Source of the DNA: Candidatus Baldrarchaeota archaeon | GTDB taxonomy: Archaea > Asgardarchaeota > Baldrarchaeia > Baldrarchaeales > DXJG01 | Length of the DNA: 32,000 nt | Reading direction: 5' to 3' | Assembly: GCA_019056805.1 (NCBI GenBank) | Contig: DXJG01000009.1 | Location: 186,015 to 218,014 of the forward strand | Shown: positions 20,815 to 24,169 of the stretch, one piece after another | Layout: every line of letters starts with the position of its first letter | Position numbering within the stretch: the stretch's first letter is position 1 | Made by a program: the position numbers and the translations under genes | The notes under the pieces: model-generated | Databases searched by the model: none | What the model saw: only the letters and a program-made list of their open reading frames with translations | Told to the model about the DNA's origin: nothing

Positions 20815-21513
<699 letters not shown>

Positions 21514-21828
21514 TCACCATACCGCCCATTATACATTACGCTATAACATGCTCAATCAATATAAGTTTACTCGAAAATACAAGCATTGGTACATTGCAAC
21601 TTAACAATATCAAATTTTGCAATTCTTTTGCAATTCGTAATTCGAATATTTTTTGTTTCAACTGTAAAAAACAGAATATACCAAAATTATATTCAGAAAT
21701 ATCAAATTAGCATTATTTTACTAATACAAGATTATCTAAAAGGTAACGCGTATAAAATTCGTGAAGATAACTTTTTAAAATTCTAAAACATTTGAATCAC
21801 ACAAAAAATATAGATAGGAGAGGAGAAA

Positions 21829-23017
21829 ATGACACAAAAAACAACAGTTTCAATAATAAAGGCAGACATAGGTTCACTAGCAGGACACCATGTAGTACAT
21901 CCAGAACTAATTGAACTTGCCAAAAAGGAACTCGAACACGCCAAAAAAGAAGGAATCATAAAAGACTACTACGTATTTAACTGTGGAGACGACCTACAAC
22001 TACTAATGACGCACGACAAAGGAGAAGGAAATTCACAAGTCCACGAACTTGCATGGAACACATTCAAAAAAGCAGCAGAAAAAGCAAGAGAAATGAAACT
22101 CTACGGCGCAGGGCAAGACTTACTAAAAGAAGCATTCTCAGGAAACATACGAGGCATGGGACCAGGAGTAGCAGAACTAGAATTCGAAGAAAGAAAATCA
22201 GACCCAATCCTAGTATTCGCAGCAGATAAAACAGAACCAGGAGCATTCAACCTACCACTATTCAAAGTATTCGCAGACCCCTTCAACACCCCAGGACTCG
22301 TAATAGACCCAAACATGCACGGACCAGACCTAGAACACACAGGATTCAAATTCAAAATACTTGACGTAATAGAAGGAAGAAGCGTAGTCTTAAAAGCACC
22401 AGAAGAAATCTACGACATTCTCGCATTAATAGGTACAACAGGGCACTATGTAATCGAAAAAATATGGAGATACGACGATCTACCAGCAGCATCAGTATCC
22501 ATAACAAGACTAAGCTTGATAGCAGGAAAATATGTGGGCAAACTAGCAGCTATAATGGCTGCTAGGCCTAAAGATGACCCAGTTGCTATCGTACGTGCGC
22601 AACACGGTCTTCCAGCCGTAGGCGAAGTACTCGAAGCTTTTTCATTTCCACACGCCGTCGCAGGTTGGATGCGTGGTAGCCACTACGGGCCCCTAATGCC
22701 TGTAGGATTAAAAGATGCTCGATGCACCAGATTCGACGGCCCCCCAAGAATCGTATGTCTAGGATTCCAAGTATGCAATGGCCATCTAATTGGTCCTTCA
22801 GATATGTTTGACGATCCAGCATTTGACAGAACCAGAATGCTTGCCAACGAAATTGCCGAATATTTCAGAAGACATGGACTCTTCATGCCCCACAGACTCG
22901 GTCCAGATGGGAGAAGAACAATAACAGAATTAAACATGTTCTTCTCCCAGGACTCACGAAATGGAATATACAACGCTACCTCAGGTGCTAGAGAAACTCA
23001 GAGAACGATTCAAGTAA
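21829..23017 (+). CDS. fbp: Fructose-1,6-bisphosphate aldolase/phosphatase (class V); join(21829..22541,22572..22906,22956..23017), 369 aa after removing two introns
   Basis: KADIGS..GHH, GDD, YGAGQDLL, DKTEPGAFN, GWMRGSH and RFDGPP. After splicing, YVGKDDP and HRLGPDEMEYTTLPQVL are restored; stop TAA at 23015-23017. Confidence 0.93.
22542..22571 (+). other. Putative BHB-type mRNA intron 1 of fbp (30 nt, in frame, relaxed motif)
   Basis: GGGC-AA^A-CTAGCAGC-tataatg-GCTGCTAG-GCCT-AA^A. Removal converts YVGK-LAAIMAARPK-DDP to canonical YVGKDDP. Confidence 0.82.
22907..22955 (+). other. Putative BHB mRNA intron 2 of fbp (49 nt, frameshifting, strict BHB)
   Basis: TCG-GTCC-AG^A-TGGGAGAAGAACA-(16 nt)-TGTTCTTCTCCCA-GGAC-TC^A-CGA. 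Removal restores the frame and the conserved C-terminus. Confidence 0.9.
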
Positions 23018-23018
23018 A

Positions 23019-23038
23019 CCATTTTCCTTTTATTTTTC
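23019..23038 (+). terminator. Pyrimidine-rich archaeal terminator candidate for fbp
   Basis: CCATTTTCCTTTTATTTTTC directly follows the spliced-frame stop at 23017. Confidence 0.45.
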
Positions 23039-23107
23039 AATAACTTTACAATACTCTAATTTAATTTTTTATTTTCCCAAGATACTCAATTCCAGAAAAA
23101 TATAAAT

Positions 23108-24169
23108 CTAAAAAATAGCATCGATGAGATTTAAAATAAATGTAGGAGGAACAGTGAGATAAAAATAATTTTCGTTAAATACCGATTTAAATAAAATCTC
23201 TGATTCTAATAGTTCTTCTACACATTCATTAAGCATATATTTTGCTATTTCGTCCCTTATTTCATCGCATAATAAATAATACAAATCTCTTAATTCTTTA
23301 AAAGATAAGTATGCCTTTTTAGGTCTTCTTGAGAGATGCAACGCCATTTTTTCCAGTAAAAGAACGCTTTGCATGTTCATATTTCTTAAAGCTTCCAATA
23401 TCACAAGATCATCATTTAATATCCAAAGTAAGTCATGAGAACATTTTCTAACGTCTTCAACGGTTATTTCCATTCCAGAAGCCGCAAACGGATAAAGCCT
23501 TCTTAATATTTCAATAGATACACTCGGTCTATTAATGTCAAACTCGCAAACTAAATCCGTAATGTACCTAATCACATCTATATCAATTTCTATAGGAAAC
23601 GCTAACTTTACACGTTGCAAAGTTATATCAAAAAGCTGACGAGGCGTATAGATTCCAAGTTTCAAAATGAAATCTAAACGATTTTCTAAATTAGAGAAAC
23701 TTTTTCTTGAAAGAGTTCCGGCATCAGCTGATGCTAAAACAATTATATTCCTTTTTTTACTCTCTCTTAAAACTTTACGAAATAAACTGGAATACAGATC
23801 AACATCATCTAGCACTAATACTAGGAAAAGATCCTTATACTTCTCATTACTTATACATTCAACTTCGTTTCCAATGAAAGAAAACTTTCTTCCACCTATA
23901 ATATTATTTAAAAATTTCTTATTTTCAGAATCATGCATATTGACAAAAACTTTAGGGAATCCATAAGCATCCTTTATTTTCTCCCCTAAATAGTTCACGA
24001 AAGCGGTTTTACCTATACCATTAATACCAGTAACCACAATGTGCAAGGGGTATTGATGGCTTATTCCATCTTCTACGAATGTTTCTGCTACTTTGAGTTC
24101 CTTTTCCCTATGTAATAATTCTGGTGGGATAAAGAAAGGGTCAAAAATTGCAGCTGGGCCGATATTCAA
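23108..24169 (-). CDS. cdc6: Cdc6/Orc1-like AAA+ ATPase (divergent)
   Basis: IPPELLHREKEL, Walker A GINGIGKT, Walker B VLDDVD, YTPRQLFDITLQR and a winged-helix-like C-terminus; GGTGA SD before the TTG start. Confidence 0.75.
   Translation of the reverse strand: MNIGPAAIFDPFFIPPELLHREKELKVAETFVEDGISHQYPLHIVVTGINGIGKTAFVNYLGEKIKDAYGFPKVFVNMHDSENKKFLNNIIGGRKFSFIGNEVECISNEKYKDLFLVLVLDDVDLYSSLFRKVLRESKKRNIIVLASADAGTLSRKSFSNLENRLDFILKLGIYTPRQLFDITLQRVKLAFPIEIDIDVIRYITDLVCEFDINRPSVSIEILRRLYPFAASGMEITVEDVRKCSHDLLWILNDDLVILEALRNMNMQSVLLLEKMALHLSRRPKKAYLSFKELRDLYYLLCDEIRDEIAKYMLNECVEELLESEILFKSVFNENYFYLTVPPTFILNLIDAIF

What the first reader, a model, noticed from the sequence alone, without database searches (positions are those of the whole stretch)
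21829..23017. Central-metabolism gene (FBP aldolase/phosphatase) split by two tRNA-type BHB introns: candidate archaeal mRNA splicing system
Seen: the fbp ORF matches class V FBPA/P except for a 10-aa insert in YVGK|DDP and a loss of similarity after HRLGP. Each break coincides with a hairpin flanked by a 4-bp helix and two 3-nt bulges. Cutting after the second nucleotide of each bulge gives exons 21829-22541, 22572-22906 and 22956-23017 (1110 nt, 369 aa), restoring both motifs. Established: BHB motifs are cut by the tRNA splicing endonuclease EndA, and archaeal protein-coding introns are known in only a few genes, mainly cbf5. Inference: this lineage splices mRNAs of core metabolic enzymes. 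Automated annotation would miss this and call a 404-aa protein with a nonsense tail, so more such introns may be hidden genome-wide.
Basis: partly seen in the sequence, partly recalled or inferred. Interest (0 to 1): 0.93.

Follow-up and report, generated by a model that had tools for sequence, protein, structure and literature searches.

The report
Two tRNA-type introns split Asgard fbp
The gene for a key sugar-building enzyme (fructose-1,6-bisphosphate aldolase/phosphatase) of a heat-loving Asgard archaeon is interrupted by two tiny introns of the kind normally cut out of tRNAs, so the working enzyme can very probably be made only after the messenger RNA is cut and re-joined, something published so far for essentially one archaeal gene (cbf5).

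Summary
The 404-aa ORF at 21829-23043 is a class V FBP aldolase/phosphatase. It carries an exact 10-aa insert inside YVGK|DDP and loses similarity after HRLGP. Removing 22542-22571 (30 nt) and 22907-22955 (49 nt) gives a 369-aa protein with the family C-terminus. Both inserts fold as bulge-helix-bulge (BHB) motifs, and the cuts fall where the archaeal splicing endonuclease cuts.

Comparative evidence is strong:
- Intron 2 sits at the same site in all 11 genus-level sequences (34, 37 or 49 nt). Its core is invariant and its loop hypervariable.
- Exon 3 evolves under purifying selection only in the spliced frame (181 synonymous vs 34 non-synonymous differences; read-through frame 0 vs 220).
- Intron 1 occurs in 6 alleles, one of 29 nt (frame-breaking). 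Sister alleles lack exactly these bases.
- A same-order orthologue has neither intron.

The genome encodes an alpha/beta EndA pair and RtcB. I verified four more such introns, in pcm, pyrG, infB and porG. Another Asgard genus has a separate 70-73-nt intron in fbp.

No RNA data exist, so splicing is inferred. All 14 public gene calls are unspliced. This scan has already flagged similar introns in other Asgard genomes; I found no publication beyond cbf5.

The parts
21817..21825 (+). Shine-Dalgarno-like GGAGAGGAG, 4 nt upstream of the ATG of fbp
   Evidence: Read directly from the sequence.
21829..22541 (+). fbp exon 1 (codons 1-237 plus the first two bases, AA, of the Lys238 codon)
   Evidence: PF01950 match and alignment to 3r1m. 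Against relatives there are 47-64 synonymous vs 12-14 non-synonymous codon differences.
22536..22539 (+). BHB 1 central helix, 5' strand (GGGC, exon)
   Evidence: Pairs with GCCU at 22566-22569 (G-U, G-C, G-C, C-G).
22540..22542 (+). BHB 1, 5' bulge AAA. The predicted cut is after 22541.
   Evidence: Fold. The cut position restores GGC AAA GAT = G K D.
22542..22571 (+). Intron 1, 30 nt. It has an inner stem CUAGCAGC/GCUGCUAG, a loop UAUAAUG, and then GCCU plus AA. It splits the codon of the Lys that aligns with K232 of S. tokodaii FBPA/P.
   Evidence: Exact 10-aa gap against 3r1m. It is present in 6 alleles with loops UAUAAUG, UAUAAUA, CGCUUUG, CAAAAAG and CAAAAG, one of them 29 nt long. It is absent, base for base, from 5 sister alleles and from the same-order orthologue.
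22570..22572 (+). BHB 1, 3' bulge AAA. The predicted cut is after 22571.
   Evidence: Geometry read from the sequence and the fold. The outer helix beyond it is weak (U22535-G22573 only), which makes this a relaxed BHB.
22572..22906 (+). fbp exon 2 (third base of the Lys238 codon to the first base of the Asp350 codon)
   Evidence: Against relatives there are 38-41 synonymous vs 2-4 non-synonymous codon differences. Its codon usage differs from exon 1.
22898..22904 (+). BHB 2 outer helix 5' strand (UCG, 22898-22900) and central helix 5' strand (GUCC, 22901-22904), both in the exon
   Evidence: They pair with CGA at 22957-22959 and GGAC at 22950-22953. All 7 pairs are invariant in 8 sequences.
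22905..22907 (+). BHB 2, 5' bulge AGA. The predicted cut is after 22906.
   Evidence: Fold. The cut restores G|AC = Asp, then EMEYTTLPQV.
22907..22955 (+). Intron 2, 49 nt (1 mod 3, so it shifts the frame). It has a perfect inner stem of 12-13 bp, 22908-22919 pairing with 22938-22949, and a loop of 16-18 nt.
   Evidence: z -4.9. It sits at the same site in all 11 genus-level sequences, at 34, 37 or 49 nt. In the structure count 95.5% of cells are paired, against 33-57% when the partners are slid.
22954..22956 (+). BHB 2, 3' bulge UCA. The predicted cut is after 22955.
   Evidence: In relatives the bulge reads UCA, AUA or UUA.
22956..23017 (+). fbp exon 3 (AC of the Asp350 codon, 18 further codons, and the stop TAA at 23015-23017)
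   Evidence: Spliced frame: 181 synonymous vs 34 non-synonymous pairwise codon differences. Read-through frame: 0 vs 220. Of the 20 variable columns, 15 lie at codon position 3.
23022..23038 (+). T-rich tract (TTTTCCTTTTATTTTT) directly after the spliced-frame stop. It resembles an archaeal terminator, and the unspliced ORF runs through it.
   Evidence: Read from the sequence. The terminator function is inferred.
21829..23043 (+). Unspliced read-through ORF (404 aa), as called by public annotation

Best explanation
The fbp gene (class V fructose-1,6-bisphosphate aldolase/phosphatase) of this Asgard archaeon is a split gene with two bulge-helix-bulge (BHB) introns. Records of the same genus are titled Ca. 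Baldrarchaeota or Ca. Odinarchaeota.

Proposed mechanism:
1. The pre-mRNA folds locally so that each exon-intron boundary lies in a 3-nt bulge on either side of a 4-bp helix.
2. The genome's heteromeric (alpha-beta) splicing endonuclease EndA cuts after the second base of each bulge.
3. The RNA ligase RtcB joins the exons. The 30-nt and 49-nt introns are probably released as circles.
4. The mature 1110-nt reading frame gives the 369-aa enzyme.

What is shown: the sequence anatomy; the comparative pattern; selection on the spliced frame; the presence of the enzymes; and other such introns in the same genome.

What is inferred: that cleavage and ligation actually take place on this mRNA.

The unspliced message would give a protein with 10 residues inserted at the catalytic lysine and a frameshifted nonsense tail, so splicing is very probably obligatory for activity.
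For: 1. Homology breaks coincide exactly with the inserts, and removing them restores YVGKDDP and the family C-terminus.
2. BHB geometry is met in both:
   - Intron 1: central helix GGGC/GCCU, bulges AAA and AAA, inner stem 8-10 bp.
   - Intron 2: outer helix UCG/CGA, central helix GUCC/GGAC, bulges AGA and UCA, inner stem 12-13 bp.
   - Motifs this strong occur about 2-3 times per million positions.
3. Intron 2 is at the same site in all 11 genus-level sequences, at 34, 37 or 49 nt. The BHB core is invariant, the only stem or central-helix changes seen in the relatives give G-U pairs, and the loops run from 5 to 18 nt without resemblance.
4. Exon 3 shows 181 synonymous vs 34 non-synonymous differences in the spliced frame, and 0 vs 220 in the read-through frame. 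The whole gene shows 94-114 synonymous vs 16-19 non-synonymous, so it is not a pseudogene.
5. Orthologues:
   - The same-order orthologue G004 (82% identical) is contiguous and reads LGPEEMEY.
   - Of 164 Asgard genomes with fbp, none outside this genus and one other genus shows a candidate intron.
   - Five sister alleles lack exactly the 30 bases of intron 1.
6. One intron-1 allele (L116) is 29 nt, so there the frame is broken unless the insert is removed.
7. Intron-1 loop residues read IM, II, AL, KK, with changes at all codon positions, while the stems are kept.
8. Machinery: EndA alpha (184 aa, with the catalytic Tyr/His region), a beta-like paralogue (178 aa) and RtcB are present. ARAGORN finds 22 of its 31 tRNA calls interrupted.
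9. Four further genes of this genome are split the same way, with abutting Pfam coordinates: pcm 3-59|61-208, pyrG 1-40|42-265, porG 1-32|33-173, and infB.
10. The DNA is real: independent contigs from four studies, one of them shared with the source sample.
Against: - There is no RNA evidence of any kind; no RNA run was listed.
- The relatives are too close for covariation: 0 pairs with compensatory double changes, and the shuffle controls are not exceeded.
- Intron 1 is in frame and free of stops in 5 of 6 alleles, so read-through would give a full-length protein.
- The outer helix of intron 1 is weak. The minimum-free-energy fold extends the central helix to 5 bp (U22535-A22570), a register that would not give the right cut.
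- One stem-breaking change in L073 (CTA to CTT) is synonymous in the read-through frame.
- The 29-nt allele rests on one Logan contig (seen in two samples) and differs by one A in a run of A, so an error is possible.
- The role of K232 as the Schiff-base lysine is from my memory of Fushinobu 2011 and Du 2011. I did not find it in the library.
Confidence: 0.88

Rival explanations
1. Only intron 2 is spliced. The 30-nt 'intron 1' is a true in-frame insertion, translated as a 10-residue loop (KLAAxxAARP), and the hairpin is incidental.
For: It is in frame and stop-free in 5 of 6 alleles. The outer BHB helix is weak and there is a competing register. The one stem mismatch (L073) is a synonymous change in the read-through frame.
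Against: - It splits the codon of the lysine inside the otherwise invariant YVGKDDP motif. None of the other Asgard genomes with fbp, nor the solved structures, has an insert there.
- The BHB geometry has cut sites that restore the motif exactly, at about 3 per million positions by chance.
- The central two residues are hypervariable (IM, II, AL, KK) while the stem bases are kept.
- A 29-nt allele breaks the frame.
- In-frame BHB introns of the same size are verified elsewhere in this genome, e.g. infB at 33 nt.
Confidence: 0.07
2. There is no splicing at all. The gene is decaying, or it works as a C-terminally altered 404-aa protein.
For: Public annotation calls the unspliced ORF, which is open for 404 codons.
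Against: - The whole gene is under purifying selection (94-114 synonymous vs 16-19 non-synonymous).
- Exon 3 is conserved only in the frame that read-through cannot reach (181/34 against 0/220).
- Read-through tails differ in length and sequence between alleles (379-420 aa) and run into the T-rich terminator tract.
- The open read-through frame is explained by the T-poor coding strand.
Confidence: 0.03
3. The ribosome, not an RNA enzyme, skips intron 2, by programmed frameshifting or by translational bypassing of the hairpin as in phage T4 gene 60.
For: A stable hairpin of similar size (34-49 nt) lies between two frames. T4 gene 60 bypasses 50 nt (from my own knowledge).
Against: - No matching take-off and landing codons give the right frame. 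GAU at 22906-22908 and GAC at 22951-22953 would land in the wrong frame (read).
- There is no slippery heptamer upstream of a downstream structure.
- It does not explain the exact 3-4-3 bulge-helix-bulge geometry, the conserved exon pairing, intron 1, or the same geometry in four other genes.
Confidence: 0.02
4. The BHB motifs are endonuclease cleavage sites that destroy or regulate the mRNA without exon ligation.
For: EndA also cuts BHB motifs in rRNA precursors and in a 5' UTR (PMC7714728).
Against: Selection on exon 3 in the spliced frame requires that exons 2 and 3 be joined and translated. RtcB is present. The excised lengths are exactly those that restore frame and motifs.
Confidence: 0.02
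5. The inserts are assembly or sequencing artefacts of a metagenome bin.
For: The genome is a metagenome-assembled draft of 18 contigs.
Against: Contigs from four runs in four studies (one shared with the source sample) are identical across intron 1, and one covers intron 2. Eleven genus-level sequences from separate assemblies carry intron 2, and six alleles carry intron 1.
Confidence: 0.005

Closest known systems
cbf5 pre-mRNA intron of Crenarchaeota (Aeropyrum, Sulfolobus, Desulfurococcales; Watanabe 2002, Yoshinari 2006, Yokobori 2009 = PMC2738675)
   Same: It is a short BHB intron inside a protein-coding sequence. The organisms have a heteromeric (alpha-beta) EndA. The intron is present or absent by lineage. 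Gene callers mis-annotate it.
   Different: The gene is different (central metabolism, not RNA modification) and so is the phylum (Asgard). There are two introns in one gene, one of them inside a catalytic codon. cbf5 of this genome is contiguous. Splicing is not shown experimentally here.
Archaeal tRNA and rRNA BHB introns (Marck and Grosjean 2003; Asgard tRNA census, bioRxiv 10.64898/2026.10.13.758758)
   Same: The same 3-nt bulge, 4-bp helix, 3-nt bulge motif, with a cut after the second bulge base. The enzymes are presumably the same. The same genome has heavily interrupted tRNA genes.
   Different: The substrate is an mRNA without a tRNA body. The exon halves of the motif must also encode protein. 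The Asgard preprint covers tRNA genes only and does not use the terms mRNA or cbf5.
BHB intron in the 5' UTR of HVO_1309 mRNA, Haloferax volvanii (PMC7714728)
   Same: An mRNA shown to be cut by the archaeal splicing endonuclease in vivo and in vitro.
   Different: That intron lies in the untranslated leader and does not interrupt the reading frame.
HAC1/XBP1 unconventional mRNA splicing in eukaryotes (IRE1 plus RtcB or Trl1)
   Same: The intron is removed from an mRNA by a protein endonuclease at stem-loop sites, and the exons are joined by a tRNA ligase (RtcB in metazoa). The reading frame changes on splicing.
   Different: The nuclease (IRE1) and its recognition motif are different. That splicing is regulatory and stress-induced. 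A regulatory role here is pure speculation.

Membership tests
Archaeal BHB (splicing-endonuclease) intron | [quoted passage not shown] | tested here: met
   Intron 1: GGGC/GCCU with bulges AAA and AAA. Intron 2: GUCC/GGAC with bulges AGA and UCA.
Archaeal BHB (splicing-endonuclease) intron | Flanking helices: an inner (intron) helix and an outer (exon-exon) helix | tested here: inconclusive
   The inner helices are perfect (8-10 bp and 12-13 bp). The outer helix of intron 2 is 3 bp (UCG/CGA) and invariant. The outer helix of intron 1 is only a possible U-G pair plus distant pairs, and the MFE fold prefers a 5-bp register. Intron 1 is therefore a relaxed motif that needs a broad-specificity enzyme.
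Archaeal BHB (splicing-endonuclease) intron | Cutting after the second base of each bulge yields a functional product | tested here: met
   The product is 1110 nt and 369 aa. YVGKDDP and the C-terminus DEMEYTTLPQVLEKL are restored. It equals the alleles and orthologues that lack the introns.
Archaeal BHB (splicing-endonuclease) intron | The genome encodes the splicing endonuclease, of a type that accepts relaxed motifs, and an RNA ligase | tested here: met
   There are two PF01974 paralogues, one with the catalytic Tyr/His region and one without. RtcB matches at E 4e-183. That they form an (alpha-beta)2 enzyme is inferred from the pair.
Archaeal BHB (splicing-endonuclease) intron | The structure is kept in relatives while the unpaired parts drift | tested here: met
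   Intron 2: core invariant, 3 changes from A-U to G-U, loops of 5-18 nt. Intron 1: stems kept, five different loops. No compensatory double changes were seen, because the sequences are too close.
Archaeal BHB (splicing-endonuclease) intron | Spliced RNA, a circular intron, or cleavage in vitro is observed | not testable with these tools
   No RNA run was listed for this stretch.
Class V FBP aldolase/phosphatase (PF01950) | Full-length match to the family, including the active-site motif and the C-terminal segment | tested here: met
   The unspliced ORF matches E 8e-164 over profile positions 1-342 only. The spliced product aligns over residues 1-369 with the contiguous orthologue G004. The Lys aligned with K232 of 3r1m is restored next to DDP.
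cbf5 intron (orthologue of the crenarchaeal mRNA intron) | The intron lies in cbf5 | tested here: not met
   cbf5 of this genome matches TIGR00425 positions 6-319 over 945 contiguous bases. The fbp introns are separate acquisitions.

The most novel reading that the evidence does not exclude
The fbp introns belong to a genome-wide set of endonuclease-dependent mRNA introns. I verified six here, in fbp (two), pcm, pyrG, infB and porG, and earlier notes of this scan list more. That would make mRNA splicing obligatory for core metabolism and translation in an Asgard lineage.

Beyond housekeeping, splicing could act as a gate on enzyme output. The unspliced message encodes a protein broken at the catalytic lysine, so EndA/RtcB activity would set how much active FBPA/P is made, much as IRE1/RtcB does for HAC1/XBP1. 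The introns might also spread as a family: four of the six share CTAG in the inner stem.
Probability: 0.15. Interest if true: 0.9.

Novelty: new member of a known kind. Interest (0 to 1): 0.75.

Why it matters
Published knowledge of archaeal mRNA splicing rests on one coding gene (cbf5, Crenarchaeota) and one 5' UTR (Haloferax). A 2020 paper still says so, and a 2025 paper still cites only the cbf5 papers.

Here an enzyme that drives gluconeogenesis cannot be read from the genome without removing two tRNA-type introns. One of them sits inside the catalytic lysine codon. The organism belongs to the archaeal group closest to eukaryotes, and the same genome has at least four other split genes.

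Practical consequences:
- All 14 public gene calls for this protein cluster are wrong at the C-terminus, and five of them also carry a spurious insert at the active site.
- Metabolic reconstructions and protein families built from Asgard bins therefore inherit such errors.

Conceptual consequence: split protein genes processed by protein enzymes may be common in Asgard archaea, which bears on ideas about the origin of interrupted genes. The claim is directly testable by RT-PCR or metatranscriptomics.

Tried and rejected
- **RNA evidence.** No RNA holder was listed for this stretch in either search, so expression and splicing could not be tested.
- **Structure-only genome scan for BHB motifs.** The background is as high as the signal. 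Canonical and mirror-image motifs were almost equally frequent (70459 vs 70431).
- **ORF-rescue and codon-model filters.** These gave only a small excess (38 vs 26), because the T-poor coding strand leaves wrong frames open. Only the top hits were usable. No genome-wide count can be given.
- **Covariation.** No compensatory double changes were found in intron 2 and the shuffle controls were not exceeded. The relatives are too close.
- **Foreign origin of exon 2, to explain its odd codon usage.** Protein trees of the exon 1 and exon 2 parts both put the same-order orthologue nearest, and a clade with it is not rejected (p-AU 0.54). Rejected for lack of support.
- **Polarity of intron 1 (gain or loss).** The DNA tree puts the alleles without intron 1 as a clade (support 77/99) inside a ladder of carriers. 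Carriers as a single clade is not rejected (p-AU 0.25). This stays undecided.
- **Introns as a multi-copy mobile repeat.** blastn-short of six introns against the genome found only themselves.
- **Two-match fbp genomes in the phylum scan.** These were contig ends or simple frameshifts, not introns.
- **Literature check of the Schiff-base lysine numbering.** The library returned nothing relevant.
Full report
**1. What is in the sequence**

The ORF 21829..23043 (+) encodes 404 aa. It is preceded by a GGAGAGGAG ribosome-binding-like site. It matches Pfam PF01950, the class V fructose-1,6-bisphosphate aldolase/phosphatase (FBPA/P), at E 8e-164, but only over profile positions 1-342 of 361.

Against the solved S. 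tokodaii enzyme (3r1m) the alignment is continuous apart from two gaps. One is a 6-residue insert, PDLEHT; the same-order orthologue G004 reads PDLEST at this point, so it is a real protein feature. The other is an exact 10-residue gap between YVG and KDDP. Similarity ends after HRL.P.

Joining 21829-22541, 22572-22906 and 22956-23017 gives 1110 nt and 369 aa. YVGKDDP is restored and the protein ends ...HRLGPDEMEYTTLPQVLEKLRERFK*. The spliced-frame stop (23015-23017) is followed directly by a T-rich tract. The read-through ORF runs across that tract.

**2. The RNA shape**

In the canonical BHB motif each strand reads helix, then 4-bp central helix, then 3-nt bulge, then helix. The enzyme cuts after the second bulge base. 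(This is established knowledge: Marck and Grosjean 2003, as summarised in the Asgard tRNA preprint.)

| Element | Intron 2 | Intron 1 |
|---|---|---|
| Outer helix | UCG (22898-22900) / CGA (22957-22959) | only a possible U22535-G22573 pair plus more distant exon pairing |
| Central helix | GUCC (22901-22904) / GGAC (22950-22953) | GGGC (22536-22539) / GCCU (22566-22569) |
| Bulges | AGA and UCA | AAA and AAA |
| Inner stem | perfect, 12-13 bp | CUAGCAGC / GCUGCUAG |

Intron 2 fits the motif fully. Intron 1 has a weak outer helix, and the MFE fold extends its central helix by a U-A pair. It is therefore a relaxed motif.

The folds are more stable than shuffles: z -4.9 for intron 2 and z -2.4 for intron 1.

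A scan of the whole 1.92-Mb genome shows how rare such motifs are:
- As strong as intron 1: 10 in 3.85 million strand positions (mirror-image control 3).
- As strong as intron 2: 7 (control 8).

Each such motif is thus a roughly one-in-a-million event per position. Here two of them fall exactly on the two homology breaks of one gene.

**3. The DNA is real**

Contigs of four public runs from four studies (one shared with the source sample) cover intron 1 with no difference, and one covers intron 2.

**4. Relatives**

The window lies in G000:C17 of an Asgard genome. Records of the same genus are titled Ca. Odinarchaeota AUK032 and Ca. Baldrarchaeota Yap30.bin4.67.

The same-order genome G004 has a contiguous fbp that is 82% identical and reads LGPEEMEY across the intron-2 site. 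In a scan of 400 Asgard genomes, 164 have fbp. Candidate introns were found only in this genus and in one genus of another family. Most other matches are contiguous over profile 1-360, and the ten split or truncated ones I examined were contig ends or simple frameshifts.

*Intron 2.* Eleven genus-level sequences (three species genomes plus metagenome contigs) all carry it at the same site, at 49, 37 or 34 nt.
- In the eight aligned sequences the 7 exon-involving pairs and the 9 core stem pairs never vary or change only from A-U to G-U. In that alignment 95.5% of cells pair, against 33-57% when the partners are slid.
- In three further alleles the only helix changes are again to G-U: GGAC to GGAU in L117, and A to G in the stem of L116.
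- The loops differ completely, from 5 to 18 nt.
- No compensatory double substitution exists, so this is conservation rather than covariation.

*Exon 3.* The strongest single result concerns exon 3. Across eight sequences, pairwise codon differences are 181 synonymous vs 34 non-synonymous in the spliced frame, and 0 vs 220 in the read-through frame. Of the 20 variable columns, 15 are third codon positions of the spliced frame. The last 19 residues are therefore translated in a frame that can be reached only by skipping the insert. The whole gene is under purifying selection (94-114 synonymous vs 16-19 non-synonymous), so it is not a pseudogene.

*Intron 1.* It occurs in six alleles: G000, L117, L073, L098, L118 and L116.
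- Their loops are UAUAAUG, UAUAAUA, CGCUUUG, CAAAAAG (in two alleles) and CAAAAG.
- The stems are kept, apart from one mismatch in L073.
- One central-helix change, GCCU to GUCU, keeps pairing as G-U.
- Five alleles are 30 nt and free of stops. If read through, they would give KLAA-xx-AARP(K/R), with xx = IM, II, AL or KK.
- The sixth allele (L116) is 29 nt and breaks the frame. There the public gene call is split into products of 263 and 83 aa. This allele rests on one contig, seen in two samples.
- Five sister alleles lack exactly these 30 bases and read GGC AAA/AAG GAT. That is the predicted spliced junction.
- A rooted DNA tree allows either one loss or one gain.

*Position in the enzyme.* The intron lies inside the codon of the lysine that aligns with K232 of 3r1m (numbering). 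From my memory of Fushinobu 2011 and Du 2011, this is the Schiff-base lysine and is followed by the metal-binding DD. I could not confirm this in the library.

**5. Machinery and genomic context**

- The genome has two EndA paralogues. One is 184 aa and has the catalytic Tyr/His region. The other is 178 aa and lacks the His. This matches the heteromeric alpha-beta arrangement that accompanies cbf5 splicing in Crenarchaeota and was reported for most Asgard genomes.
- RtcB is present.
- ARAGORN finds 22 of its 31 tRNA calls interrupted.
- cbf5 itself is contiguous.
- The top hits of my filtered scan are four further split genes. Their exon translations abut exactly on Pfam profiles:

| Gene | Place in G000 | Intron length | Pfam coordinates of the two exons |
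|---|---|---|---|
| pcm | C17:48225-48255 | 31 nt | PCMT 3-59 / 61-208 |
| pyrG | C9:155012-155043, minus strand | 32 nt | CTP_synth_N 1-40 / 42-265 |
| porG | C6:49473-49507 | 35 nt | POR 1-32 / 33-173 |
| infB | C10:39163-39195 | 33 nt | splits GGI / TQHIGA |

- Earlier notes of this scan had flagged these and others in the same genome, and many in other Asgard genomes. I re-derived the four independently.
- Another Asgard genus (family f18: G039, G030, G139-G142) has a different insert of 70-73 nt, six codons further on in fbp. It has an in-frame stop and BHB-like ends, and its removal restores EEMEYTTLPGVLKKL.

**6. Mechanism**

Shown: the anatomy, its conservation, selection on the spliced frame, the presence of the enzymes, and the same arrangement in other genes.

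Inferred: the pre-mRNA folds into the two BHB motifs. EndA cuts after 22541, 22571, 22906 and 22955. RtcB joins the exons. The 369-aa enzyme is translated from the ligated mRNA.

Ribosomes that read an unspliced message would make a protein with ten extra residues at the catalytic lysine and a nonsense tail. Whether the cell uses this as a control point is unknown.

**7. Rivals**

- *Intron 1 is a translated in-frame insertion.* This has some support: it is in frame, its outer helix is weak, and one stem-breaking change is synonymous. Its position, its geometry, its loop variability, the 29-nt allele and the verified in-frame infB intron count against it. I give it 7%.
- *Pseudogene or truncated protein.* Contradicted by the substitution pattern.
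- *Ribosomal bypass.* It lacks matching codons and does not explain the geometry.
- *Artefact.* Excluded by the independent assemblies.

**8. Known or new**

The searchable literature names cbf5 as the only coding-sequence case, plus a 5' UTR intron in Haloferax. The Asgard tRNA-intron preprint does not use the terms mRNA or cbf5. The kind of element is therefore known. This gene, this phylum, two introns in one gene and a catalytic codon split are new. All 14 public gene calls of the protein's cluster are unspliced.

**9. Unexplained**

- Codon usage switches at the intron-1 site. Exon 1 has A3 0.61 and T3 0.07, like the most biased genes of the genome. Exon 2 has A3 0.34 and T3 0.27. The genome mean is 0.39 and 0.33. 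The switch is also seen in G003, which lacks intron 1, but not in G004. Trees give no sign of foreign origin.
- Intron-2 lengths (34, 37, 49) and the f18 intron lengths (70, 73) all equal 1 modulo 3.
- Four of the six verified introns carry CTAG in the inner stem: 8 occurrences in 210 nt against 0.6 expected.

Noticed in passing
L010:2538-2610 (G039); also L015:1052-1124, L105:140-209, L106:142-211, L107:144-213, and L108 (reverse strand): A different Asgard genus (family f18, six genomes, one of them complete) has its own insert of 70-73 nt in fbp, six codons downstream of intron 2. The unspliced frame contains a stop. The ends look like a BHB (AUAC/GUAG with one mismatch, bulges ACA or ACU and AAC or AAU, inner helix UGCG/CGCA). 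Removing it restores EEMEYTTLPGVLKKL.
   Followed up: partly
window 21829-23017; the switch lies near 22530-22570: Third-position codon composition switches sharply at the intron-1 site. Exon 1 has A3 0.61 and T3 0.07, like the genome's most biased genes. Exon 2 has A3 0.34 and T3 0.27, and GC 0.50. Exon 3 looks like exon 1 again. The switch is also present in G003, which lacks intron 1, and absent in G004. Protein trees give no evidence of foreign origin. Unexplained.
   Followed up: partly
G000 C17:48225-48255 (pcm), C9:155012-155043 minus strand (pyrG), C10:39163-39195 (infB), C6:49473-49507 (porG); loci L112-L115: Four further protein-coding genes of the same genome are split by BHB inserts of 31-35 nt. 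The Pfam coordinates abut exactly on the two sides.
   Followed up: yes
the six verified mRNA introns of G000 (window 22542-22571 and those listed above): Four of the six introns carry the palindrome CTAG (as GCTAG/CTAGC) in the inner stem: 8 occurrences in 210 nt against 0.6 expected at the genome rate. None has extra copies elsewhere in the genome. This could reflect a shared origin or a sequence preference.
   Followed up: partly
window 22907-22955 and the homologous introns in L026, L029, L073-L075, L098, L102, L116-L118; also the f18 introns: All length variants of intron 2 (34, 37, 49 nt) and of the f18 fbp intron (70, 73 nt) equal 1 modulo 3, so the lengths differ by multiples of three although the sequence should be non-coding. 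This may be chance, as few independent indel events are involved.
   Followed up: no
proteins P0001-P0014 (90% cluster of the window's 404-aa ORF): All 14 public gene calls for this protein are read-through products of 263-420 aa. None is the 369-aa spliced protein. One gene is called as two fragments because its intron 1 is 29 nt.
   Followed up: yes
G000 C10:25263-26207 (L109): cbf5, the classic intron-bearing gene of Crenarchaeota, is contiguous in this genome.
   Followed up: yes
window 20815-21507 (-) and 21829 onwards (+): Triosephosphate isomerase and fbp are transcribed divergently from a 321-bp AT-rich spacer (GC about 0.26). The order M24 peptidase, TIM, fbp, AAA ATPase is kept in the relatives' contigs.
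   Followed up: partly
window 22321-22338 (residues PDLEHT): There is a six-residue insert relative to the S. tokodaii enzyme. G003 carries the identical PDLEHT and the same-order orthologue G004 reads PDLEST, so it is a genuine protein feature and not a third intron.
   Followed up: yes
window 23108-24169 (-): A 353-aa ORF with only weak AAA/ATPase_2 Pfam matches, below the cut-offs. It is conserved next to fbp in the relatives. Its function was not examined.
   Followed up: no
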